DNA from: an uncultured virus (IMG/VR IMGVR_UViG_3300022745_000033)
Taxonomy: Duplodnaviria > Heunggongvirae > Uroviricota > Caudoviricetes
Direction: 5' to 3' (one strand)
Virus record (IMG/VR): IMGVR_UViG_3300022745_000033
Length of the DNA stretch: 20,000 bases
Shown: positions 120 to 20,000 of the stretch, piece by piece
Numbering within the stretch: position 1 is the first letter of the stretch
Layout: each line of letters opens with the position of its first letter
Made by a program: the position numbers and the translations under genes
The notes under the pieces: model-generated
What the model was told of the DNA's origin: nothing
Database searches by the model: none
What the model saw: the letters and a program-made list of their open reading frames with translations, nothing else

Positions 120-270
120 GTGATCTCAACAACAGTTCGAGAGACATGATCACCGCGCCGACACTGGTAGCAATCTGGGCGTAGTGTGAAGGCGGCGTGT
201 CCATGCAAGCGTTGACAACGCTTTCAACAAGCAGAGCAGTCCAGAGAAGGGTAAGGGTAAATCGAGTCAT
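112..270 (-). CDS. Small putative membrane protein, 52 aa (MTRFTLTLLWTALLVESVVNACMD...SVGAVIMSLELLLRSHD)
   Basis: Not in the ORF track. GAAGGAG SD upstream, ATGA overlap with the stop of 267-785, two hydrophobic stretches. Confidence 0.6.
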   Translation of the reverse strand: MTRFTLTLLWTALLVESVVNACMDTPPSHYAQIATSVGAVIMSLELLLRSHD

Positions 271-785
271 GCGGGTGCTCCTTCCTTTGTCTTGGGCCAG
301 CCTGCCTTGACGAAGTCTGCGATCACGTTCTGCACCACAGGCAACGTGCGCACGGCCTTGGCCTCGTCTTGAGGCAGGTACTTCTCGAACTCAGGCAGAG
401 CGTCGGCAAGAGCCTTGCGTGTGGTCACGCTCATAGTCACACCACGAATCTGCTCTTCCAGCTTGGCACGCTGGATGTTTTGCTCACGGTGCCGCACATC
501 CAGTGCTTTCAGGGTCTCCCACAACTCGGGTAAGTTACGTTCAACGAAGTTATAGTGAGAAGAGTAGGTGTACACAGAGAGCAGATGCCCAGGCAATTGG
601 ACACTCTGGAGATTCACCCAATTTCCTTGTCCAAGCTCGGCTATTTCGACGCCAAACGTCTCCTTGAAGTAGGAGGCAATGGCATTGATGACCAGCTTGC
701 TTGCTGCTTCGTTGTAGTCGACGAAGGGTACGTCGTTCATGACAGAGCGTACGAATGCGTCACGGATGGTGTTAGTGAGTCTCAT
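267..785 (-). CDS. Nmad5-like (nucleotide modification associated domain 5) phage protein
   Basis: N-terminal MRLTNTIRDAFV and C-terminal SVTTRKALADALPEFEKYLP resemble the Nmad5 family pattern as I recall it; ATGA coupling on both sides. Confidence 0.65.
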   Translation of the reverse strand: MRLTNTIRDAFVRSVMNDVPFVDYNEAASKLVINAIASYFKETFGVEIAELGQGNWVNLQSVQLPGHLLSVYTYSSHYNFVERNLPELWETLKALDVRHREQNIQRAKLEEQIRGVTMSVTTRKALADALPEFEKYLPQDEAKAVRTLPVVQNVIADFVKAGWPKTKEGAPA

Positions 786-1401: not shown

Positions 1402-3783
1402 TCATTTCGTCTTCGCCTTGGCTCCCTTCGTTGCGAAGTGATCGGCGATGTACTTGCTGAAGTTCTTGGTGTCCTGCCATTGCACGGACAACCCATTCAC
1501 GCTCTTGTTGTTCACCCACACGACCTTGGTATGGACGCGGTGGTGCTTGAGCAGGCTCGTGAATTTGTTGGGCGATACAGGGATGTTGCCCACCACGTAC
1601 TCCAGCATGGCGCGCAGCTCATCGCGGGCGATGTTGCATTTGCCATCTGGTGCTGTGCGGCCCAGCAGGGCAGCGAGCACTTCACGGTAGTCCTCGACTT
1701 TGCCGTTGAGCATTGCATTGCGCTGGTAGGACAGGTCGGTAGGCAGCTGGTCGATGAAGAAGCCGAAGTTCCCTTCCAGCAGAGCCGACGCCACGGTGTC
1801 GATAGACGACTCCGAGATAGAGATCATGGTGTCGCGGTCTGTGGTGTGGATCACTTCGCCTGCCTTCTGTTCATCCAGTGGGTAGGACAGAAGGAAGTCA
1901 TGAAACGATTGCAACTCTTTCTCAAGGTCGGCCAGCTCCTTGTCGCTGATGACCAGCTTGTCGGGCTGGTAGCGACCAACGTTGAAACGGCGGTCGTTCT
2001 TGTCGATCAGCACTGGGTCTGTCATGTTGGACATGAGAATCCAGTTGGTGTAATTGCGGGCTTCCTGTGCGTTGCTGTACATGGCACGCATGGGCACAAA
2101 CTCCTCAGTGATGAAGTTTTTAAGTTTGGCCATGACGCCCTTCTCGTTTTGGAGCGCCTTGATCTGCACCTCGTCCACAAACACGAGCAACGAGTTCTCC
2201 ATGAACTGGTTGTACTTGTCTGCCAGCTCCTCCATCCGACGGCTAGCTACATGAGCAGCACCGAAGATCGGACGCAGGATGTTGTTAGTCAGGATGCCTT
2301 TTCCTGTCCCTTGGGTGCCATGCAGCACCCAGGCTGTTTTGGCGCGATCACGGCGTTGCAGTACGAATGCAGTCCAGTTCAGGAAGTGCTCAGTCACATC
2401 CACATCCATACCCAGTGCGTGGTGCAGGACTTTGAAAATGGTGGGCGGGCACTTGGTGACCTTCTTGGCCTGGGTCTTCATGTACGGGCTAGGCACGAAC
2501 TTGTTGATGACTTTGTTGGCTACGTCCACACGCACGTTGTCCATGGGATCAAACACCAGGTCCCACTCAGGGATGTAGTCGCTCAGCGGCACACCGTACT
2601 GGAGGGCAAAGTGACGAAGTTGGGTTTCGTTCTTGGCGGGTGTGATATCCAGAAGGTCAGAAGTGTTGTCGTAAGTGCCACGGTAATAGATGCCAGACTT
2701 GCGGTCACAGAAAGCCAGGTACGTAATGCCTGAGCTTGACGTGCGTAGATTTCCTGAGCTGGTGATCTGGAGCCAGTATTCGGGCAGCAGCTCTTTGGTG
2801 AGGTAGCTCGGCTCACCCTTGAAGTTGTGGATGTAGTCAGGTTTGTCCTCCGGGTGGTAGTAAGCCCAGCTGTCACCACCATTCAGGTTGAAGTACACGA
2901 AACCGCGTTCGACCTTCATCTCGGTGATGGTGGCCTCGTCCGGCTTGAGCAGGACGTGGGCTTGACCGGCTACCTTGTAGGTGAACTTGCGCTTGGGCAA
3001 TCCGAGCGAGTCACGCAGTTCGTTCACACGCTCGTGTGTGAGTTTGGTGTTCTTCTCGGTGGTGTTGATAGCACTAGCCAACGAGAGCACGTCGTACTTG
3101 CGCTTCTCCAGCTTGATGCGTGGGTTCTTGCCCATCGGGTCCTTGATGCCCTTGAGGATGGGAGGCGCAATGTAGATGAGCTTGTCGTTCTGGCATGCGC
3201 TGATGTCCAGTGGCCAGGAGATGGAGTTGCCAGTTTTGGTCAGACCCATGGAGTCACGCAGCATGGGGACTTCGTGGTTCTTCTGGATTAGCCATTGCTT
3301 GAGCAGAGGTGCTGCGTACGAACGGTCGAGCATCATGAAAACGTGGGCACGAATCTTTTTATCGGACACGCCATAGGAAGCTGACCACTGCACCACATAG
3401 GAGATGTCTTGCAACCCCATCTCACCGAGGAACAAGTCGATGGTGAGCGGTTGTGAAACAGTCTGACCACCAGGTGTCTGGATGGTGATGTGTTCGGGTA
3501 GTCCATCTAGGTCTAGCACCAACCATTCTGTGGTGTCGTTGGTTGAAGTGCTGCCTGCACGAGACTCTTTCACCAGGTCACGAGAGATGACACCTTTGAG
3601 CACACAGTTGCCTTTTGCTGCGTGTTTATTCAGAAGTGACTCGAACTGGGACAGGTTGTTGACAGACTCTTGGTGGGAGGTGAACTCCCACACAAAGGGG
3701 TAGGGAGTCTTTATGAGATCACCGTTGACTTTCGTATATTGCTTGGTCAAAGGCTCACTTGCTTGGAGGAAGTAGACGTTCAT
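1402..3783 (-). CDS. Primase-polymerase (AEP-like N-terminus) fused to an SF3/D5-like helicase (NrS-1/DUF5906-type replication protein)
   Basis: Walker A GTQGTGKG, Walker B LLVFVDE, motif C ILMSN and DRRF Arg finger. N-terminal LVLDLDG (DxD) and RAHVF (His) are AEP-type motifs. Start placed at ATG 3783 behind AAAGGA. Confidence 0.85.
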   Translation of the reverse strand: MNVYFLQASEPLTKQYTKVNGDLIKTPYPFVWEFTSHQESVNNLSQFESLLNKHAAKGNCVLKGVISRDLVKESRAGSTSTNDTTEWLVLDLDGLPEHITIQTPGGQTVSQPLTIDLFLGEMGLQDISYVVQWSASYGVSDKKIRAHVFMMLDRSYAAPLLKQWLIQKNHEVPMLRDSMGLTKTGNSISWPLDISACQNDKLIYIAPPILKGIKDPMGKNPRIKLEKRKYDVLSLASAINTTEKNTKLTHERVNELRDSLGLPKRKFTYKVAGQAHVLLKPDEATITEMKVERGFVYFNLNGGDSWAYYHPEDKPDYIHNFKGEPSYLTKELLPEYWLQITSSGNLRTSSSGITYLAFCDRKSGIYYRGTYDNTSDLLDITPAKNETQLRHFALQYGVPLSDYIPEWDLVFDPMDNVRVDVANKVINKFVPSPYMKTQAKKVTKCPPTIFKVLHHALGMDVDVTEHFLNWTAFVLQRRDRAKTAWVLHGTQGTGKGILTNNILRPIFGAAHVASRRMEELADKYNQFMENSLLVFVDEVQIKALQNEKGVMAKLKNFITEEFVPMRAMYSNAQEARNYTNWILMSNMTDPVLIDKNDRRFNVGRYQPDKLVISDKELADLEKELQSFHDFLLSYPLDEQKAGEVIHTTDRDTMISISESSIDTVASALLEGNFGFFIDQLPTDLSYQRNAMLNGKVEDYREVLAALLGRTAPDGKCNIARDELRAMLEYVVGNIPVSPNKFTSLLKHHRVHTKVVWVNNKSVNGLSVQWQDTKNFSKYIADHFATKGAKAKTK

Positions 3784-3870
3784 GAAAGTCCTTTCAGAGA
3801 GGGAGAGTGTATTCGATCTAAAACAGAGCTTAGAACCATAAACCATAATAGGTGTTCATAAGCCTGTTTT

Positions 3871-3980
3871 CCCTCTATATATCTATATACCTTATACTCT
3901 TATACTTATAATCTTATCTTATTATTTTGAAATAAAGATTAGATATTAGATACTGATTAGAAAAACCTATATAGAGATGG
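3871..3980. other. Very AT-rich tract with short iterated motifs; candidate replication origin
   Basis: CTTAT(A) iterations on the left, ATTAGA three times on the right, bounded by the inverted repeat CTCTATATA (3873-3881) / TATATAGAG (3968-3976); lies directly upstream of the primase-helicase gene. Confidence 0.55.
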
Positions 3981-4028
3981 GGCGGCAGTTCATAACGAAA
4001 GACCATATTCCCATCGACCAAGATCGAA

Positions 4029-4066
4029 GAAGTAGGCGGTAGAGGCATAGCCCTACCACCTACTTC
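4029..4066 (-). terminator. Long hairpin after the 296-aa gene (terminator or RNase III-type site)
   Basis: - strand reads GAAGUAGG-U-GGUAG-GGC-UAU-GCC-U-CUACC-G-CCUACUUC, about 10 nt after the stop; only a weak U tail. Confidence 0.5.
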
Positions 4067-4075
4067 ACTCAGTCC

Positions 4076-4966
4076 TTAACCGACATTCGCTTCAGACGCT
4101 TCAGCAACACGCTGAGCAGTACGGAACTTAGGTGACGCGAGTACACGCTTGATGTCACGTTCTACGTTGAACGCACCATCATCAATATCCTCAGCTTCAC
4201 GGTCAGAGAGCGAGCGATCATCTTCAGCCCACTCAGCCACATTGTTCGCAGCGCGTTGCGCGTTGTCCAGCAGAACTCGTTGTAGCTCGATCGGTAGTGC
4301 CGAGAATTCTTTGCTACGTTCAGCTGCACTGCTTTCATCAGACCTCAGTGCGAATTCCATCATCATGACTGCAGCACCGGTCATAGCGTCAACGTTCTCT
4401 TTGACTTGCACTAGCTTGTCTTCTTTCTTAGCCAGCTTGGACTCGAAGCGACGTTGGGTGGTCTCGGTATCCCAGTCGTATGCTTTGGCACGACGTTGGA
4501 TGTTCATCTTCATCCGACGCTGAGTGTCTTGACCTACCCGGTAAGGTTTGTCACTAGAGAACGCAGTTTCAATGTCAGGGATTTCGTAGACACGTGCATT
4601 GCCATTCCAGTCCCAGGTCATCTCAACAAGTTGCTTAGCCAGGTCGTGCCATTGGTCACGTTGCGAGTTCAATGCACGGATGCTTTCACATGCGGTCTCG
4701 TTACTAGAGCCCTGTTCACGGAAAGATTCTTCAGCGAAGTCTTTTTCGTGCAACGCAGTGGTGAGTTCAGCCATTGAATCCACACCACCGTTAGCGTGGA
4801 AGATTTCTTGGCGGATGTTCTTGAAGATGCCACGCGAAGTCGTAGCGATAAGCTGGTCGATCTTCCACGCGGTAGACGCAGCCATTTGTGCAGCGATCCG
4901 AACTTCAGGCACTTTGACGACGTAGTCATACAGGTTGAAGTAGTGGTGGGTGGTGTTAGCAGACAT
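4076..4966 (-). CDS. Hypothetical phage protein, about 296 aa, predicted helical and acidic
   Basis: Long ORF; AAAGGAA SD before ATG 4966 (MSANTTHHYF); no recognisable motif. Confidence 0.8.
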   Translation of the reverse strand: MSANTTHHYFNLYDYVVKVPEVRIAAQMAASTAWKIDQLIATTSRGIFKNIRQEIFHANGGVDSMAELTTALHEKDFAEESFREQGSSNETACESIRALNSQRDQWHDLAKQLVEMTWDWNGNARVYEIPDIETAFSSDKPYRVGQDTQRRMKMNIQRRAKAYDWDTETTQRRFESKLAKKEDKLVQVKENVDAMTGAAVMMMEFALRSDESSAAERSKEFSALPIELQRVLLDNAQRAANNVAEWAEDDRSLSDREAEDIDDGAFNVERDIKRVLASPKFRTAQRVAEASEANVG

Positions 4967-5029
4967 GATGATTCCTTTAATAAAGAGTTGATTGAGTGGG
5001 ATGCAGTCACTCACTGCCTGGGGAACGGT

Positions 5030-5221
5030 TTAACGCAGCGGTGTGGCGCAGATACGGCCAAGCACGATTTGCTGTGCTTCTTCTTCAGAGACATCGAGCA
5101 CCTCAGCAATTTGCTGGATCTTTGCCCACATCACTGCGTAGGGGTCTAGCTCTTCAACAGCCTCGTCTTCGATGAATTCGAGAGAGATGAACAGAGCGGG
5201 TGGTTGTTTTCGGATAGCCAT
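5030..5221 (-). CDS. Small early protein, 63 aa (MAIRKQPPALFISLEF...)
   Basis: AAAGGA SD before ATG 5221; lies downstream of repeat copy 1. Confidence 0.7.
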   Translation of the reverse strand: MAIRKQPPALFISLEFIEDEAVEELDPYAVMWAKIQQIAEVLDVSEEEAQQIVLGRICATPLR

Positions 5222-5249
5222 GAATGAGTCCTTTTGTATGTGCGAAATG

Positions 5250-5285
5250 CACACGCCAAAAAGGCCCGAACGCATGTGCGCTCGG
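5250..5285 (-). repeat. Early-region hairpin repeat, copy 1 (loop ACAU, one G-U pair)
   Basis: + strand cacacgccaaaaaggc-ccgaacgc-atgt-gcgctcgg. Confidence 0.9.
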
Positions 5286-5296
5286 TATTTCTGGCT

Positions 5297-5533
5297 CTAT
5301 GTGTTGTATTTGAAGAGCAGTCGTTCGTACTCTGCTTCGAGTAATTCGTCGTCGCCTTTAGCGAACGCTATTGCCTGCGCGTATAGGCGATCACGTAAGT
5401 GCGCACGCGGTGGTGTGATGACGACGTGACTTTTCAGTGGCGTTCTGATGTAGCCATTGAGTGGGTCAGTCAGCACTGGTTGGTTCATGCAAAGAGCGAT
5501 GTATTTAGTCTCTTCGTCGCGCGTACGTCTCAT
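5297..5533 (-). CDS. Small early protein, 78 aa (MRRTRDEETKYIALC...)
   Basis: AAGGAG SD and ATG are supplied by the 69-bp repeat. Confidence 0.75.
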   Translation of the reverse strand: MRRTRDEETKYIALCMNQPVLTDPLNGYIRTPLKSHVVITPPRAHLRDRLYAQAIAFAKGDDELLEAEYERLLFKYNT

Positions 5534-5598
5534 GTGTTTACTCCTTGGGGTTAGATACACATGCGAAAAAGGCCCGAGCGCTTCAGCGCTCGGAACTT
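5530..5598 (-). repeat. 69-bp perfect direct repeat A, containing hairpin copy 2, SD and start codon
   Basis: Identical to 5821-5889. Confidence 0.95.
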
Positions 5599-5605
5599 GG
5601 CTGAC

Positions 5606-5824
5606 TCAGTGAGCCATCTTGTGGCTGGGCTGGCGTGCAACGAATGCGTCGCGTGCAGCCTCGGTGTGGAAGAAGTGGATGCGTTCTGAGCCAGTACGTT
5701 CGTCAAACGTGTAGGCCTCGAACTCAGGCTCTTCGAAGTGAAGGTCCTGATGGTGAGAGCACGCATCCATGTGTGTGCCTTGGTTTGGGCAGGACAGGAA
5801 GTTGCAGCTACGGCAAGTGGTCAT
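5606..5824 (-). CDS. Small early Cys/His-rich protein, 72 aa (MTTCRSCNFLSCPNQG...)
   Basis: SD and ATG are supplied by the 69-bp repeat; CxxC-x4-C...C pattern. Confidence 0.75.
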   Translation of the reverse strand: MTTCRSCNFLSCPNQGTHMDACSHHQDLHFEEPEFEAYTFDERTGSERIHFFHTEAARDAFVARQPSHKMAH

Positions 5825-5889
5825 GTGTTTACTCCTTGGGGTTAGATACACATGCGAAAAAGGCCCGAGCGCTTCAGCGCTCGGAACTT
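5821..5889 (-). repeat. 69-bp perfect direct repeat B, containing hairpin copy 3, SD and start codon
   Basis: Identical to 5530-5598. Confidence 0.95.
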
Positions 5890-5895
5890 CTCAGG

Positions 5896-6105
5896 CTAAG
5901 TACAGAGTGGTCGGAAGCACGGTGTGTTCATGTCAATGGTGTAGACATAGTCACCGCGACGTACTTCGATGACCTGGACTGGGTATCCAACCAGATGGTT
6001 GTCGATCTTGTCCATTGCTTCTTCGAGCGTGTCGAATGTTGCGCAGAACTTCCAGTTAGGGTCGCCCTCTGCGTAGAGCGTTCCGCAAAACACGTTGTAC
6101 TTCAT
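5896..6105 (-). CDS. Small early protein, 69 aa (MKYNVFCGTLYAEG...)
   Basis: ATG 6105 overlaps the TGA of the upstream 29-aa ORF. Confidence 0.7.
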   Translation of the reverse strand: MKYNVFCGTLYAEGDPNWKFCATFDTLEEAMDKIDNHLVGYPVQVIEVRRGDYVYTIDMNTPCFRPLCT

Positions 6106-6191
6106 GGCAGCACCATGAGCAGAGCGCAAAGAAAAATAGCTGCAGCGATGCAGCTATTGACGATGATCTCGCCGTGAGTGTCGAAATTCAT
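6102..6191 (-). CDS. Tiny single-pass membrane peptide, 29 aa (MNFDTHGEIIVNSCIAAAIFLCALLMVLP)
   Basis: Not in the ORF track. AGGAG SD, ATGA overlaps at both ends, hydrophobic C-terminal half. Confidence 0.7.
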   Translation of the reverse strand: MNFDTHGEIIVNSCIAAAIFLCALLMVLP

Positions 6192-6496
6192 TTGAGTTCT
6201 CCTACTGAATACTTGATCCAACCGACGTGGTAATACCGGCCCTGTTCGAGGTAGCCGTAGAAACTGCGAGCCATGGACACGGTGACCATGGAGCAGATAA
6301 ACGATGCAATGCCGGACATGGTTCCTATCAGCGTGCCCCAGTGAATCAATAGATTTAAACTAAGAACAAACACGTGTAATAGGTTTCTTCTATCGCTGCC
6401 GAGCACCCGTAACCGAGTCCTCGGATTCAGCATGCTCAGCAGCACGAACTCGAACAACACATTAAGTGCACCGAAGACAAAAACGGCTTCAATCAT
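6188..6496 (-). CDS. Putative membrane protein, 102 aa, 2-3 hydrophobic segments
   Basis: Hydrophobic runs; overlaps both neighbours; AAGGGG SD. Confidence 0.75.
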   Translation of the reverse strand: MIEAVFVFGALNVLFEFVLLSMLNPRTRLRVLGSDRRNLLHVFVLSLNLLIHWGTLIGTMSGIASFICSMVTVSMARSFYGYLEQGRYYHVGWIKYSVGELK

Positions 6497-6674
6497 GGTT
6501 GCGCCCCTTCTCTAAATGTGCGAGAAGCGCGGTTTGAAGTTCCACGGCCACGTCGATGAGGCGCTCGACGCTTACCTCTACGTTGTAGTTATCGACGCTG
6601 TAGTCCAGCACCGTGTACCCTTCGTTGTCGATGATCTTGGCCTGCGCTTGTCCCAGTTTGATGATGATCTGCAT
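6489..6674 (-). CDS. Small early protein, 61 aa
   Basis: TAAGGA SD; downstream of repeat copy 4. Confidence 0.75.
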   Translation of the reverse strand: MQIIIKLGQAQAKIIDNEGYTVLDYSVDNYNVEVSVERLIDVAVELQTALLAHLEKGRNHD

Positions 6675-6713
6675 ACCTGTTCCTTAGTTGATGGCATCAG
6701 CCCAGTGCTGATA

Positions 6714-6749
6714 CACACGCCGAAAAGGACCGAGCGCCGAAGCGCCCGG
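6714..6749 (-). repeat. Early-region hairpin repeat, copy 4 (C-UUCG-G loop, one G-U pair)
   Basis: + strand cacacgccgaaaagga-ccgagcgc-cgaa-gcgcccgg. Confidence 0.9.
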
Positions 6750-6756
6750 TATTCAC

Positions 6757-7056
6757 TCACGCTGCCACCTGACGGATGACTGCCTGATTGCTGCCCTTCC
6801 ATTGGTGGCGTTCCCAGACGGAGCCATCCGCCTTGGTGAAGCGCTTGACCGTGTGCGCAGGCTTCACAGCCTTGACCACGGGTGTGGGAGTTGCGATGCA
6901 GCCACGAGTGGCCAGCAGCGCGTCTTGCTCTGCAAGCTTTGCACGTTGCGCACGGAACACCTCGGTTGCAAGTGCAAGCCGAGCTTCCAGTACAGTGACT
7001 TTGGCTTCCAGCTCTTTGTTGGCGGCGATGAGGGCGGGGCGGGTGATAGTTGCCAT
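6757..7056 (-). CDS. Small early coiled-coil protein, 99 aa (MATITRPALIAANKELEAKV...)
   Basis: AAAGGAG SD before ATG 7056; heptad-like N-terminal half. Confidence 0.75.
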   Translation of the reverse strand: MATITRPALIAANKELEAKVTVLEARLALATEVFRAQRAKLAEQDALLATRGCIATPTPVVKAVKPAHTVKRFTKADGSVWERHQWKGSNQAVIRQVAA

Positions 7057-7085
7057 GGTGTTACTCCTTTGTTGGCGGGTTGGTT

Positions 7086-7121
7086 CACACGCCAAAAAGG
7101 CCCGAGCGCTTCAGCGCTCGG
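7086..7121 (-). repeat. Early-region hairpin repeat, copy 5
   Basis: + strand cacacgccaaaaaggc-ccgagcgc-ttca-gcgctcgg. Confidence 0.95.
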
Positions 7122-7176
7122 TTCCCCATTCCCCATAGTCCTCAAACAGAGGAGTAGGGCCGTAGCCCTACCTACC

Positions 7177-7410
7177 TCAGACTGCCTCAGCCTTCAGCTT
7201 CAGCTTGCGCTGACGCTGAGCGGGCACAACTTGGACAGCAGCGTCACGGCGTGCCGCCAGCTCTGCCGACTTGATCGTGTACTGCTCACTAGCAGACGAG
7301 ACAACCTCTGCACCAAAACGCCCTGTAGCGTTAACAGAGACAACAGCACCATGTACTGCATACGCAGCGGTGTTAGCGACGAACTTACCAATAGCGGAAC
7401 CTGCGGACAT
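7177..7410 (-). CDS. First gene of the leftward arm, Ala-rich, 77 aa
   Basis: TAAGGAG SD; downstream of repeat copy 6. Confidence 0.75.
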   Translation of the reverse strand: MSAGSAIGKFVANTAAYAVHGAVVSVNATGRFGAEVVSSASEQYTIKSAELAARRDAAVQVVPAQRQRKLKLKAEAV

Positions 7411-7447
7411 ATCGAACTCCTTAATGAGATAACAGAGCGAACTTGCT

Positions 7448-7484
7448 CACACAACTACCAAGACCCGAGCGCTTCAGCGCTCGG
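7448..7484 (-). repeat. Early-region hairpin repeat, copy 6 (perfect stem, divergent tail without a U-run)
   Basis: + strand cacacaactaccaagac-ccgagcgc-ttca-gcgctcgg. Confidence 0.85.
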
Positions 7485-7665
7485 CTACACCGGTAGGGAC
7501 TCCTACCCCCGAGCACAAACACGAACCCGAAGTGGGGGCTTCGTAAGCGCTAGGGGGAGGAGAGACTCACGAGTCGGTGTGGTTCTAAAAAATTTCTAAA
7601 AAATTTTCCTGCCCAGAAATTAAGCACCTCACCCTCCAATCCAAGTTCGATCTAAAATCGCGCCC

Positions 7666-8265
7666 ATGACTACCATGCGAAACACGGCGCAGATAAAACG
7701 TAAAGAGCGCACCAAAGCCTCTGACATCGCCAAACTGCGTAGCAAGGAAACCACGACCATGGCCGCTGCGGCACGGGTCAGCCCAGACAAGCCCCTGACG
7801 GAGCAACAGCGCCTGTTTGTCCAGTTCTGGGCAGAAGGCGACTCCCTGCCAAACGCCTACCAGCGTGCCGGCTACTCCACCGAGCAGGTCTCCTATGCGT
7901 ACCGCATGACCAAGATGCCCAACATCCTGAAGCAGTACAACTTGGTGAAGGAAGAGTTCCGCAAGGCGGCTCAGATGACCCGCGAAGAGGTGATGCTGGG
8001 CCTCAAAGACGCCATTGACATGGCCAAGCTCATGTCTGAACCGGCCACCATGATTGCTGGCTACCGTGAGATCGGTAAGCTGTGCGGCTACTACGAGCCG
8101 AAGAAAGTGGACATCAACGTGAATGTCAATGGAAGCGTCGCCATTGAGCGCATGAACAAGATGACCGACGCGGAACTCCTCAAAATCATTGAAGAAGCGT
8201 CCCTAACCGGCGTGGATCAGGCCTTGATTGGCGTGGACCACGACGATGGCGACGAAACCAACTGA
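7666..8265 (+). CDS. terS: Terminase small subunit
   Basis: LTEQQRLFV...AYQRAGYS HTH-like motif typical of TerS; upstream of terL. An alternative start exists at ATG 7759 behind AAGGA. Confidence 0.8.
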   Translation: MTTMRNTAQIKRKERTKASDIAKLRSKETTTMAAAARVSPDKPLTEQQRLFVQFWAEGDSLPNAYQRAGYSTEQVSYAYRMTKMPNILKQYNLVKEEFRKAAQMTREEVMLGLKDAIDMAKLMSEPATMIAGYREIGKLCGYYEPKKVDINVNVNGSVAIERMNKMTDAELLKIIEEASLTGVDQALIGVDHDDGDETN

Positions 8266-14615: not shown

Positions 14616-14688
14616 GCCATGTAGTTGTCTCCCTGCATGGTGTGCCATGTTTGAAACCCGGCCGCTCACGAGGTGGCCGGGTCTTTTT
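14616..14688 (+). ncRNA. Candidate anti-SD small RNA (stem-loop displaying UUGUCUCC, followed by a terminator)
   Basis: GCCATGTAG-ttgtctcc-CTGCATGGT stem-loop followed by a strong terminator; resembles betaproteobacterial anti-SD 'toxic sRNA' motifs as I recall them. Confidence 0.45.
14656..14688 (+). terminator. Rho-independent terminator
   Basis: ACCCGGCCGC...GTGGCCGGGT stem followed by CTTTTT. Confidence 0.85.
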
Positions 14689-16491: not shown

Positions 16492-16517
16492 GAGCGGGGC
16501 TTCGGCCCCGTTCTTTT
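16492..16517 (+). terminator. Rho-independent terminator
   Basis: GAGCGGGGC-TTCG-GCCCCGTTC-TTTT. Confidence 0.9.
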
Positions 16518-18675: not shown

Positions 18676-20000
18676 ATGATTATTCTTGCCAGTACCAGCG
18701 ATAAGATTCAGGTCACAACAGCACAGGCCGTCACCGTTGACGTCCATGCGTCGTGGGTAGACCTCACCGGTACCACGGTGACACCCGGCCGTCTCAACTC
18801 CAAGATCAGTACGGCAACCACGACGGATGTGGTGACCTCGCCGGGCGCAGGCGCGGCACGAAACGTCAAGCTGATGACGGTGACCAACATCCATGCTTCC
18901 AGTTCGGTCGATATTTTGATCAAACATACGGACGGCACGAACGCTGTCGAGCTTTGGGGTGCAACGCTGGCAGCAGGCGAGTCGGTTGAGTTTGATGAAA
19001 ACGGCACGCAGGTTTTGACAAACACCGGAGCTTTGAAAGCTCCCGGCCCGAGCATCTCCAGCACCGTCGATATCCAGACATTCACCAACTCAGGGACTTG
19101 GGTAAAGCCAACGGTTTTCACACCCAAGTCAGTCCTTGTGAAGCTCTGGGGCGGCGGCGGCGGCGGCGGCGCTGGCGCATCCCTGGGCACGGCAGTAGCC
19201 CACCACGGTGGTGCAGGCGGTGGCGGTGGCGCAGCAAACTTTCAGCTGTTCAACGCTGCTGATCTGGCATCCACCGTGGCAGTGAACATAGGAGCCCCTG
19301 GCTCTGCTGGCGTGAAGGGTGCAATTGGTGCTGCCGGCGGTAATGGTGGCACCGGCGGTACTACCACTTTTGGCTCACTGATCTCGGCCTATGGGGGCGG
19401 TGGAGGTGCAGGTGGCCCGATCACAGCCACGGCCACAGCTGGCGGGTCAGGTGGCGGCACCGGTAGTGCAGGAAACATCGGCGCTGCTGTAGCTACTGCG
19501 GGTGGTTACCCGGGCACAACCGCAACAGGCGTGAACGGAGTCTCAGGTGGTGGCGCTGGTGGGTATGTGGCCGCTGTCATGACCTCTGGCCTCGCCACGT
19601 TTGGCTGCGCAGAGTACGGCGGCGCAGCGGGGGCCGGGCAGATAGCCACAGCAGCAGCAGCTTCCTTCGGTGGAAGCTCACTTTATGGCGGCGGCGGCGG
19701 CGGTGCTGGTGGTAGTCACACAGCAGTTCCTGCTACCACACTAGCTGGTGCCGGCGGTACATCAGGCGTCCATACTTGCGGCGGCGGCGGCGCGGCCGGT
19801 AGTGACGGCGGCTCAGCTGGCGCCGGTGGTAACGGCTCAGCCGGAGCAGCCGGGAATTCAACCAAAGGCGGGTCGGGCGGCGGCGGCGGCGGCGCGTCGA
19901 CCAACACAACTTTTGCTGCGGGTGATGGTGGCGCAGGGGGTCAGGGCGGCGGTGGCGGTGGCGGTGGCGGCTGCGGTGGCGGCACACCAGGCGGGCTCGG
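18676..20000 (+). CDS. Glycine-rich tail fibre-like protein, truncated by the window end
   Basis: Not in the ORF track. TAAGG SD, ATG 18676 (MIILASTSDKIQVTT...), then QTFTNSGTWVKP...VKLWGGGGGGG and continuous GGxGG repeats; no stop noticed up to 20000. Confidence 0.85.
   Translation, partial: MIILASTSDKIQVTTAQAVTVDVHASWVDLTGTTVTPGRLNSKISTATTTDVVTSPGAGAARNVKLMTVTNIHASSSVDILIKHTDGTNAVELWGATLAAGESVEFDENGTQVLTNTGALKAPGPSISSTVDIQTFTNSGTWVKPTVFTPKSVLVKLWGGGGGGGAGASLGTAVAHHGGAGGGGGAANFQLFNAADLASTVAVNIGAPGSAGVKGAIGAAGGNGGTGGTTTFGSLISAYGGGGGAGGPITATATAGGSGGGTGSAGNIGAAVATAGGYPGTTATGVNGVSGGGAGGYVAAVMTSGLATFGCAEYGGAAGAGQIATAAAASFGGSSLYGGGGGGAGGSHTAVPATTLAGAGGTSGVHTCGGGGAAGSDGGSAGAGGNGSAGAAGNSTKGGSGGGGGGASTNTTFAAGDGGAGGQGGGGGGGGGCGGGTPGGL

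What the first reader, a model, noticed from the sequence alone, without database searches (positions are those of the whole stretch)
5250..7484. Array of six hairpin elements dividing the early region into gene cassettes
Seen: the - strand consensus CCGAGCGC-(UGAA)-GCGCUCGG-GCC-UUUUU-(G/C)GC-(G/A)UGUG recurs with stems at 5266-5285, 5574-5593, 5865-5884, 6730-6749, 7102-7121 and 7465-7484. All copies are intergenic and co-oriented. Copies 1-4 begin 7-12 nt after the upstream stop, and all six end 40-55 nt before the next ATG. The intervals are 308, 291, 865, 372 and 363 bp, so most hold a single unrelated small gene. I see no sigma70 promoter inside the element. The U-run is offset 3 nt from the stem and is missing in the first-transcribed copy (6), so a plain terminator fits poorly. 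Known analogues are PeSL cassettes of T4-type phages, T7 RNase III sites, nut/put antitermination sites, N4 hairpin promoters and integron attC sites; I recognise none as this sequence. Inference: a phage-specific system that expresses or processes each early gene as a unit and may also allow cassette exchange.
Basis: partly seen in the sequence, partly recalled or inferred. Interest (0 to 1): 0.85.

Follow-up and report, generated by a model that had tools for sequence, protein, structure and literature searches.

The report
Repeated terminator hairpins between phage early genes
An uncultured freshwater phage related to Pseudomonas phage KPP25 separates its small early genes with six copies of a hairpin module that most likely acts as a leaky transcription stop, a known kind of arrangement, here preceded by a conserved folded leader RNA of unknown role.

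Summary
Six co-oriented copies of a 45-58 nt module lie between the small early genes on the - strand (0 of 200 shuffles reach the count). The window is a podophage whose closest cultured relatives are Pseudomonas phages KPP25 and phiR18.

Relatives carry 0-7 such elements at matching gene junctions. Stem sequences differ but stay paired (92.8% of cells; 0 of 500 shuffles). The 3' flank (U-run, then GUG) stays constant. Internal copies have a purine-rich 5' flank and a U-run (20 of 27). The copy in the 5' leader never has a U-run (0 of 7).

No phage RNA polymerase, sigma factor or sigma-70-like promoter was found. I therefore read the elements as leaky intrinsic terminators fused to the next gene's 5' UTR and ribosome site. 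They resemble T4-type PeSL cassettes but lack a recognisable promoter. Gene gain and loss between relatives often, not always, abuts them.

Two new features frame the array. A covarying ~75-nt leader RNA with an invariant 16-mer lies upstream. A much longer hairpin closes the operon. A put-like antitermination system is possible but unproven.

The parts
7583..7607 (-). A/T-rich block (AAAATTTTTTAGAAATTTTTTAGAA), the probable early promoter region. It lies in the gap between the divergent early (-) and late (+) gene sets.
   Evidence: An equivalent block lies at the same distance upstream of the leader in most of the 23 aligned relatives. The promoter function is inferred. The consensus scan finds no sigma-70 match here.
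7496..7570 (-). Conserved structured leader: an outer helix, an inner stem, and a core 16-mer at 7522-7537. The core is CCCCACTTCGGGTTCG here and CCCCACTTCGGATTCG in most relatives.
   Evidence: The core is found once, on the early strand, in 22 further records. Nine columns are invariant in alignment A2. Each genome's own helix arms pair better than arms swapped between genomes: outer helix 0 of 5000 permutations, inner stem 2 of 5000. No Rfam match.
7435..7492 (-). Copy 6, the leader copy. Hairpin 7465-7484 has no U-run. GUGUG follows, then a small second hairpin at 7435-7448.
   Evidence: The leader copy lacks a U-run in 7 of 7 genomes.
7177..7410 (-). First early gene (77 aa, my cluster F2), conserved as the first gene in 13 of 21 early regions compared.
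   Evidence: No PHROG or Pfam hit. The Atlas search gave nothing above chance.
7153..7172 (-). Additional hairpin directly after the first gene's stop, with no clear U-run.
   Evidence: Hairpins with other sequences lie at the same place in L011, L013 and L016.
7072..7129 (-). Copy 5: hairpin 7102-7121, GCC, U5, GGCGUGUG.
6757..7056 (-). 99-aa gene (cluster F6).
6695..6757 (-). Copy 4: hairpin 6730-6749 with a UUCG loop, UCC, U4C, GGCGUGUG. A second hairpin at 6695-6715 begins at the GUG box.
5896..6674 (-). Four tightly packed ORFs with no element between them: 61 aa at 6489-6674, 102 aa (cluster F1) at 6188-6496, about 29 aa at 6102-6192, and 69 aa at 5896-6105.
   Evidence: F1 is present in 21 of 21 early regions compared.
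5835..5892 (-). Copy 3, 100% identical to copy 2 over 69 nt.
5606..5824 (-). 72-aa ORF unique to this phage, flanked by the identical copies 3 and 2.
   Evidence: Absent from the complete relative G002.
5544..5601 (-). Copy 2.
5297..5533 (-). 78-aa gene (cluster F10).
5236..5293 (-). Copy 1: hairpin 5266-5285 with two compensated stem changes and an ACAU loop. A second hairpin lies at 5238-5254.
4076..5221 (-). Last two genes of the early unit: 63 aa (F4, 5030-5221) and 312 aa (F3, 4076-5014).
   Evidence: No family hit.
4013..4084 (-). Long hairpin closing the early unit. The core stem is about 17 bp and about 31 pairs are predicted in all. It overlaps the F3 stop codon and is followed by a U-rich tail.
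   Evidence: Folding energy is -39.6 kcal/mol, z = -6.3, and 0 of 200 shuffles fold as well. Relatives have 9-18 bp stems at this place, against 8-9 bp (up to 10 in L016) in the array.

Best explanation
The six elements are members of one family of intergenic modules. I read each as a leaky intrinsic (factor-independent) terminator for the host RNA polymerase, fused to the 5' UTR and ribosome-binding region of the next gene.

How it would work: transcription starts at the A/T-rich block and passes the structured leader and a U-less copy of the hairpin. It then meets, after almost every small early gene, a GC-rich 8-9 bp hairpin with a purine-rich 5' flank and a U4-5 run set 2-3 nt from the stem. 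That offset should make each stop partial. Expression would step down from gene to gene, each upstream message would gain a protective 3' hairpin, and some polymerases would read on to the long hairpin that closes the unit at 4013-4084.

Because the modules are alike, they also serve as points of homologous recombination, so small genes are gained and lost beside them.

Shown: the repeat, its conservation, the stem covariation, its position relative to genes, the contrast between leader and internal copies, and the absence of a recognisable phage polymerase. Inferred: termination itself, its leakiness, and recombination at the modules.
For: (1) Anatomy: 4 of 6 copies pass a terminator consensus scan and no sigma-70-like site lies inside any copy.
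(2) In 34 elements from 8 genomes the 8 core pairs are kept through changes on both sides. 92.8% of cells are paired, 71 cells have double changes, and 0 of 500 shuffles reach this. Slid registers give 28-44% paired.
(3) A U-run of 4 or more is present in 20 of 27 internal copies and 0 of 7 leader copies. The 8 nt upstream are purine-rich in internal copies.
(4) Elements sit at matching junctions (F2|F6, F6|F1, before F4) in the window, L011, L013, L015 and L016.
(5) The family is confined to the early unit. In the complete 67.8-kb relative G002, model R2 finds 3 strong hits, all in the early region on the early strand.
(6) No phage polymerase was found. PF00940 is absent from 5 of 5 relatives, 4 of them at least 98% complete. 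No RNA polymerase, sigma or antiterminator family appears among 68 of 97 G002 ORFs scanned or among 30 window ORFs.
(7) An unrelated late-region terminator (16492-16513) is followed by the same UAUCAACC...GGAG stretch before the next gene. That part of the module therefore belongs to the downstream gene's UTR, not to a promoter.
(8) Between relatives the elements match at 82-89% while the flanking genes match at 69-80%.
Against: The U-run is 2-3 nt from the stem, and 7 of 27 internal copies lack a run of 4.
A conserved (U)GUG box 9-20 nt after the stem (28 of 34) is not a terminator feature. It is kept even in the U-less leader copy.
L010 repeats a 10-bp hairpin twice without any U-run.
Within some genomes (window, L015, L016, L010) the leader and internal copies share nearly the same stem. 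This could mean recognition by a genome-specific factor rather than mere common descent.
No RNA 3' ends were available. The RNA-library contigs are short and low in depth. One contig (6657-6820) bridges copy 4, which fits read-through only if it is RNA and not DNA carry-over.
Confidence: 0.5

Rival explanations
1. Processing and stability punctuation. The polycistronic early RNA is cut in the single-stranded U-rich stretch between hairpin A and the second hairpin, for instance by RNase E. Each gene's message then ends in a protective 3' hairpin and begins with a 5' hairpin.
For: Several copies have a second hairpin starting at the GUG box: copy 1 at 5238-5254, copy 4 at 6695-6715 and copy 6 at 7435-7448. 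The U-run is offset from the stem. A-rich and U-rich flanks can pair into a longer stem.
Against: Copies 2 and 3, and most L011 and L013 copies, have no local second hairpin. Stems of 8-9 bp are short for RNase III (criterion recalled, not tested). This reading does not explain why the U-run is lost only in the leader copy. It is compatible with termination rather than exclusive of it.
Confidence: 0.15
2. Binding sites for a phage-encoded RNA-binding regulator, working like lambda nut sites. The hairpin plus the GUG box is recognised by a small early protein that modifies elongation or translation. The U-less leader copy loads the factor.
For: The hairpin and GUG box are kept in the leader copy, which cannot be a terminator. 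Stems are nearly identical within some genomes but differ between genomes. The first gene after the leader copy is conserved in 13 of 21 early regions.
Against: In L011 and L013 the stems and loops differ from copy to copy within one genome. This argues against sequence-specific recognition of the hairpin. No early protein matches any RNA-binding or antiterminator family. Loops vary (UGAA, UUCG, ACAU, CAAG, GCAA, 3-nt loops).
Confidence: 0.12
3. A true terminator-promoter composite of the PeSL type. Each module stops the upstream transcript and restarts transcription at or near the GUG box, from a promoter of a type the consensus scan does not recognise.
For: The conserved sequence runs from the U-run through GUGUAUCAAC. 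The repeat includes the ribosome site and ATG, as in PeSLs (PMC2839356, passages read). Second hairpins would sit at the 5' end of such transcripts.
Against: No sigma-70-like site lies in any copy. TATCAA and TATCTA lack the T at the last position of a -10 hexamer (read from the sequence). The A/T-rich block that marks the probable main early promoter is absent from the modules. The UAUCAACC stretch also follows a terminator inside the late structural operon, where no promoter is expected. The stretch after GUG is not conserved in L015, L016, L021 or KPP25.
Confidence: 0.1
4. DNA-hairpin promoters for a virion-carried RNA polymerase, as in phage N4.
For: Hairpins followed by T-runs lie upstream of early genes. 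Relatives encode a giant virion protein (2789 aa in G002).
Against: PF00940 is absent in 5 of 5 relatives (the family rang in none of the 14 control genomes either, so this is weak on its own). The giant protein matches only 'virion structural protein' PHROGs, no Pfam family and no PDB sequence. Only its C-terminal ~870 aa, which carry an HExxH motif, are conserved between phages whose primases are 87-88% identical. Stems are 8-9 bp with 4-nt loops here, not the 5-7 bp stems with 3-nt loops that I recall for N4.
Confidence: 0.03

Closest known systems
PeSLs (promoter-early stem-loops) of T4-type phages (Arbiol et al. 2010, PMC2839356, passages read; Comeau et al. 2014, PMC4122927, abstract read)
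   Same: Both are repeated intergenic modules in a plastic early region. Both hold a stem-loop that attenuates upstream transcription and carry the Shine-Dalgarno sequence and start codon of the next gene. Both flank small orphan genes, and indels between close relatives lie beside them.
   Different: PeSLs are defined by a strong sigma-70 consensus promoter with an A/T-rich upstream region. No such promoter is found here. Here the conserved part is hairpin, U-run and GUG box. The phage is a KPP25-like podophage, not a T4-like myovirus. Mini-circles were not tested.
Ordinary intrinsic (Rho-independent) terminators and intra-operon attenuators
   Same: A GC-rich covarying hairpin with stable tetraloops, a purine-rich 5' flank and a U-run, placed 7-12 nt after stop codons and co-oriented with the genes.
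   Different: The U-run is set off by a conserved G/U-C/U-C spacer. The same module recurs up to seven times in 3 kb. A conserved GUG box follows it. A U-less copy sits in the 5' leader.
Operons with several internal terminators and a processive antitermination element at their start: HK022 put RNA (PMC9378689, passages read); conAn with a long-stem resistant end terminator (PMC10325885, abstract read)
   Same: The layout matches. A structured conserved RNA lies just downstream of the probable early promoter, then several short-stem terminator-like hairpins, then a much longer hairpin at the end of the unit.
   Different: No sequence relation to put was tested. The leader here is one long irregular hairpin of about 75 nt, not two stem-loops. 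No antitermination activity is shown. Relatives with few or no array elements (L012, L027) also keep the leader.

Membership tests
Intrinsic terminator | Stable GC-rich RNA hairpin whose structure, not sequence, is conserved | tested here: met
   8 core pairs; 92.8% of 305 cells paired; 71 double-change cells; 0 of 500 shuffles reach this.
Intrinsic terminator | U-tract directly 3' of the hairpin | tested here: inconclusive
   A U-run of 4 or more lies within 11 nt in 20 of 27 internal copies, but it starts 2-3 nt after the stem. It is absent in 7 of 7 leader copies. 4 of 6 window copies pass the consensus scan.
Intrinsic terminator | RNA 3' ends at the U-tract and reduced downstream transcription | not testable with these tools
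   Only contigs from two metatranscriptome libraries were available. They cannot show transcript ends.
PeSL (T4-type promoter-early stem-loop) | Sigma-70 consensus early promoter within the repeat | tested here: not met
   None of the 5 promoter-like sites in the window lies in an element. The candidate hexamers TATCAA and TATCTA lack the final T.
PeSL (T4-type promoter-early stem-loop) | Stem-loop plus SD and start codon within the repeat, flanking orphan genes that differ between close relatives | tested here: met
   Copies 2 and 3 are identical over 69 nt including SD and ATG. The segment 5534-6102, which holds two cassettes, is absent from G002. L013 has an extra 101-aa ORF between two elements where the window has only copy 1.
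N4-type hairpin promoter | A virion RNA polymerase gene in the genome | tested here: not met
   PF00940 is found in 0 of 5 relatives. The giant virion protein has no polymerase match and is variable outside its C-terminal third.
N4-type hairpin promoter | 5-7 bp stem with a 3-nt loop and a central purine (criterion recalled, from no call) | tested here: not met
   Window stems are 8-9 bp with 4-nt loops. Some relatives (L015, KPP25) do have 3-nt loops, on 9-bp stems.
T7-type RNase III processing site | Long irregular double-stranded stem of about two helical turns (criterion recalled) | tested here: inconclusive
   The core stem is 8-9 bp. Pairing of the A-rich and U-rich flanks gives up to about 15 pairs in copies 1 and 6 only.
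HK022 put RNA | An RNA of about 70 nt with two stem-loops just downstream of the early promoter, followed by terminators before the early genes (PMC9378689) | tested here: inconclusive
   Position and covarying structure are met for the leader at 7496-7570. The two-stem shape is not seen. Sequence relation and activity were not tested.
Lambda nut site | boxA plus boxB hairpin read by an N-type protein | not tested
   No N-like family was found among the early proteins. No boxA search was done.
Integron attC | An adjacent integron integrase and conserved core sites | tested here: not met
   No integrase among 30 window ORFs. G002 has a tyrosine integrase (phrog_1) about 30 kb from its array. 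The attC core sites were not searched.
Host REP element | The same palindrome dispersed in the host chromosome | not testable with these tools
   The host is unknown and the window's own assembly is not held. The exact 20-mer occurs in IMG/VR only in the same phage's record. Stems differ among related phages at matching sites, which argues against capture from a host.
Rfam families | Score at or above the gathering threshold | tested here: not met
   The best match is Acido-Lenti-1 at 22.9 bits against a threshold of 37. It is a match to the bare palindrome, on both strands.

The most novel reading that the evidence does not exclude
The hairpin array may be one part of an RNA-based processive antitermination circuit. 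The conserved, covarying ~75-nt leader with its invariant 16-mer would be transcribed first. It would make the polymerase that made it resistant to the five short-stem terminators, as HK022 put RNA does. Stray transcripts would be stopped. The much longer hairpin at 4013-4084 would then end the unit, as long-stem terminators do in the conAn system. This would be a new class of cis-acting antiterminator RNA, present in cultured Pseudomonas phages (KPP25) and so directly testable.
Probability: 0.18. Interest if true: 0.8.

Novelty: new variant of a known kind. Interest (0 to 1): 0.45.

Why it matters
Repeated terminator-like hairpins that split phage early regions into small cassettes are a known design (PeSLs), and this scan has already met it in other phages. 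The array alone is therefore of modest interest.

Three things are worth keeping. First, this is a clear case where the stems drift by compensatory change while a short 3' box stays fixed. Second, a U-less copy sits in the leader of every relative that has the family. Third, a previously unrecorded structured leader RNA is shared by at least 23 records, including cultured P. aeruginosa phages used in therapy research.

If the leader controls read-through of the array, it would be a second natural example of a protein-free antitermination RNA. It would also be a compact tool for insulating synthetic operons.

Tried and rejected
- **DNA similarity to cultured phages:** a search of 5000-7700 gave no match.
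- **Exact 20-mer in IMG/VR:** it found only the same phage's own record.
- **Metagenome scans:** the 28-mer gave 0 hits. The degenerate 3'-flank pattern gave one 67.9-kb contig of nearly the same length as G002. Neither added relatives.
- **Leader 16-mer in genome contigs:** By my own arithmetic about 280 chance hits are expected in 596 Gb, so this is noise. Only 4 of the 80 fetched loci have the A/T block or 3' motif beside the 16-mer.
- **RNAalifold on the MAFFT leader alignment:** it found only 2 pairs, because the variable helices are misaligned. I replaced it with the own-versus-swapped duplex test.
- **Sequencing runs:** 7 runs hold the stretch, 2 of them RNA libraries. Laid contigs are short and of depth 2-5. 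Their ends and gaps say nothing about transcript ends. One DNA contig in X4 skips 5482 to 6102, but only 21 letters lie on one side, so I do not count it.
- **Other readings of the GUG region:** I checked by eye for a DnaA box, an IHF site, a sigma-54 promoter, an extended -10 element and a 3-codon mini-ORF. None holds across the copies.
- **GANTC methylation sites in the leader:** not consistent across relatives.
- **ESM Atlas on the first early protein:** best score 0.79, within the range of chance.
- **Structure prediction of the giant virion protein:** not run, once the HExxH motif and the lack of N-terminal conservation made a polymerase unlikely.
Full report
**What the window is.** The - strand from about 7600 down to 1 carries small unannotated ORFs, then an 814-aa primase-like gene (1402-3846; phrog_24712, E 2.6e-224). 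The + strand from 7666 carries small and large terminase, portal, major head protein and other structural genes. The closest cultured relatives by primase are Pseudomonas phages KPP25 and phiR18 (43% identity over 94% of the protein), genus Kochitakasuvirus. An IMG/VR record (G001) is the same phage at 99.7% identity. A protein-anchored scan gave 28 loci of relatives, with primase identity from 34% to 100%. Runs holding the sequence are freshwater metagenomes.

**The observation.** The distances to the flanking stop and start codons also hold; the numbers are in the observation check. Copy 5 is preceded by a further hairpin (7153-7172). Copies 2 and 3 are identical over 69 nt, including the ribosome site and ATG.

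**The family in relatives.** A covariance model built from the six copies finds arrays upstream of the primase, on the same strand, in L011, L013, L015 and L016. A plain hairpin scan finds further members in L018, L021, L034 and KPP25.
- I aligned 34 elements from 8 genomes. The eight core pairs are 92.8% paired, with 71 cells changed on both sides. 0 of 500 shuffles reach this, and slid registers give 28-44% paired.
- The stems drift, for example CCGAGCGC, CCAAGGGC, CCGAUGGC, CCGGGUGC, CCAGCACC and AGGCCCGC. The 3' flank stays: G/U-C/U-C, U4-5, about four bases, then (U)GUG.
- GUG occurs 9-20 nt after the stem in 28 of 34 elements.
- These sequences are related, so the counts are not independent events.

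**Leader copy versus internal copies.** In each of the 7 genomes where I could identify it, the first copy lies in the 5' leader before the first gene and has no U-run (0 of 7). 20 of 27 internal copies have a run of at least four U, and their 5' flank is purine-rich. In the window's leader copy the U-run is replaced by CUUGGUAG, which pairs with CUACCGG upstream.

**Where the family occurs.** Model R2, built from the 34 elements, was run on the complete 67.8-kb relative G002. It gives three strong hits, all in the early region on the early strand, and one weak hit elsewhere (E 0.054). In the window there is nothing beyond the six copies, their antisense echoes and a weak match to a late terminator.

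**Is there a phage polymerase or other reader?**
- PF00940 is absent from 5 of 5 relatives, four of them 98-100% complete by CheckV. The family rang in none of the control genomes either.
- PHROG scans of 30 window ORFs and of 68 of 97 G002 ORFs show no RNA polymerase, sigma factor or antiterminator. I left out the structural module and the giant ORF from the G002 scan. G002 does have a tyrosine integrase.
- Relatives encode a giant virion protein of 1825-2859 aa. It matches only 'virion structural protein' PHROGs, no Pfam family and no PDB sequence.
- Only its C-terminal ~870 residues are conserved (32-37% identity), and they carry an HExxH motif. I did not fold it.
- A cryo-EM paper on the genus member A1002 does not contain the words 'RNA polymerase' (PMC13730344, term search).
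- Host RNA polymerase is therefore the likely reader.

**Promoter or not.** The consensus scan finds no sigma-70-like site in any copy. The block that probably holds the main early promoter is A/T-rich (AAAATTTT...AAAATTTT) and conserved in position among relatives. The modules have nothing like it. The UAUCAACC...GGAG stretch that follows GUG in the window, L011 and L013 also follows an unrelated terminator inside the late operon (16492-16513). It therefore belongs to the downstream gene's UTR.

**Cassette turnover.** I clustered early ORFs of 21 regions by blastp. The cluster names F1, F2 and so on are mine.
- The backbone is F2 - F6 - F1 - F10 - F4 - F3 - primase. F1 is present in 21 of 21 regions and F2 in 13 of 21.
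- The number of elements ranges from 0-1 (L012, L027) to 6-7 (window, L013, L016).
- Compared with G002, the window has an extra segment at 5534-6102, holding a 69-aa ORF, copy 3, a 72-aa ORF and copy 2. Its right end is at copy 2. Its left end is at an ATGA stop-start overlap with no element.
- L013 has element - 101-aa ORF - element where the window has copy 1 alone.
- Other homology breaks lie at gene starts without an element.
- Elements cross-match between genomes at 82-89%, while neighbouring genes match at 69-80%.
- Exchange at the repeats is therefore partly supported.

**The frame around the array.**
- Upstream: between the A/T block and copy 6 lies a ~75-nt element (7496-7570) with a nearly invariant core 16-mer. 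The core is found once, on the early strand, in 22 further records including KPP25.
- Its helices differ in sequence between genomes. One example is CCCCC/GGGGG in the window against GGGGG/CCCCC in L010.
- Each genome's own arms pair better than arms swapped between genomes: outer helix 0 of 5000 permutations, inner stem 2 of 5000.
- It has no Rfam match. L025 and L030 carry a second copy on the other strand, upstream of the primase.
- Downstream: the unit ends, right at the F3 stop, in a much longer hairpin (4013-4084; -39.6 kcal/mol, z -6.3). A ~120-nt A/T-rich stretch follows, then the primase.
- Relatives have 9-18 bp stems at that place, against 8-9 bp (up to 10 in L016) in the array.

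**Reading.** The most economical explanation is a family of leaky intrinsic terminators fused to the next gene's UTR, spread by duplication and recombination. It works like a PeSL but fails the PeSL membership test for want of a promoter (PMC2839356, passages; PMC4122927, abstract).
- The GUG box, the U-less leader copy and the near-identity of stems within some genomes are not explained by this reading. They keep three rivals alive: RNA processing, a nut-like protein site, and an unrecognised promoter.
- The layout of structured leader, short-stem stops and long-stem end recalls operons under processive antitermination (HK022 put, PMC9378689, passages; long-stem resistant terminators, PMC10325885, abstract). 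I give that about 0.18.
- Against it, relatives with almost no array elements still keep the leader.

**Novelty.** This scan's earlier notes list similar hairpin or terminator cassettes in early regions of other phages. A word search returned 32 findings in at least 31 genomes. These are unchecked AI notes. The kind is therefore not new, though this family and its leader RNA are.
- On print: my search for 'KPP25' with 'phage' returned 25 papers, of which 15 were listed. None is about transcription, judging by title and the start of the abstract.
- I did not search for the leader motif in papers, and I looked at no supplementary files.

Noticed in passing
window 7496-7570 (-), core 7522-7537: A conserved, covarying structured leader element with a near-invariant 16-mer. 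It is shared by at least 23 records, including Pseudomonas phage KPP25, and has no Rfam match. L025 and L030 hold a second copy on the opposite strand, upstream of the primase.
   Followed up: partly
window 4013-4084 (-): A very long hairpin (about 31 predicted pairs, -39.6 kcal/mol) overlaps the stop of the 312-aa gene and closes the early unit. Relatives have 9-18 bp stems at the same place.
   Followed up: partly
window 3870-3990: A ~120-nt strongly A/T-rich stretch with repeated TATAAG and ATAAGA words lies between the long hairpin and the primase gene. It could be a promoter cluster or a replication origin.
   Followed up: no
window 16492-16513 (+) and 14656-14682 (+): Two ordinary terminator-like hairpins lie in the late operon. 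The first listed is followed by the same UAUCAACC...GGAG pre-start stretch as the early modules.
   Followed up: partly
window 267-785 (-): A 172-aa protein matches Pfam Nmad5 (nucleotide modification associated domain 5; E 3.1e-13, above the cut-off). This hints at DNA or nucleotide modification.
   Followed up: no
window 18676-19998 (+): An ORF open at the window's end is full of GGC-rich repeats (repeat families D2, D4, D5). It is a glycine-rich, perhaps fibre-like, structural protein.
   Followed up: no
L038 215-8584 (G002) and counterparts in G003-G005 and KPP25: A giant virion protein of 1825-2859 aa. Its N-terminal two thirds are unrelated even between phages with 87-88% identical primases. 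Only the C-terminal ~870 aa, which carry an HExxH motif, are shared.
   Followed up: partly
L038 12260-13309 (G002); L076 (Methylophilaceae chromosome): The complete relative G002 encodes a tyrosine integrase. A leader-like context (A/T block plus the core 16-mer) lies in a Methylophilaceae chromosome. Some relatives may be temperate, and the host may be a freshwater betaproteobacterium.
   Followed up: no
L010 5217-5240 and 5524-5547: This relative (primase 89% identical) lacks the family. Instead it repeats its own 10-bp hairpin twice, once in the leader and once after the first gene, both without a U-run.
   Followed up: no
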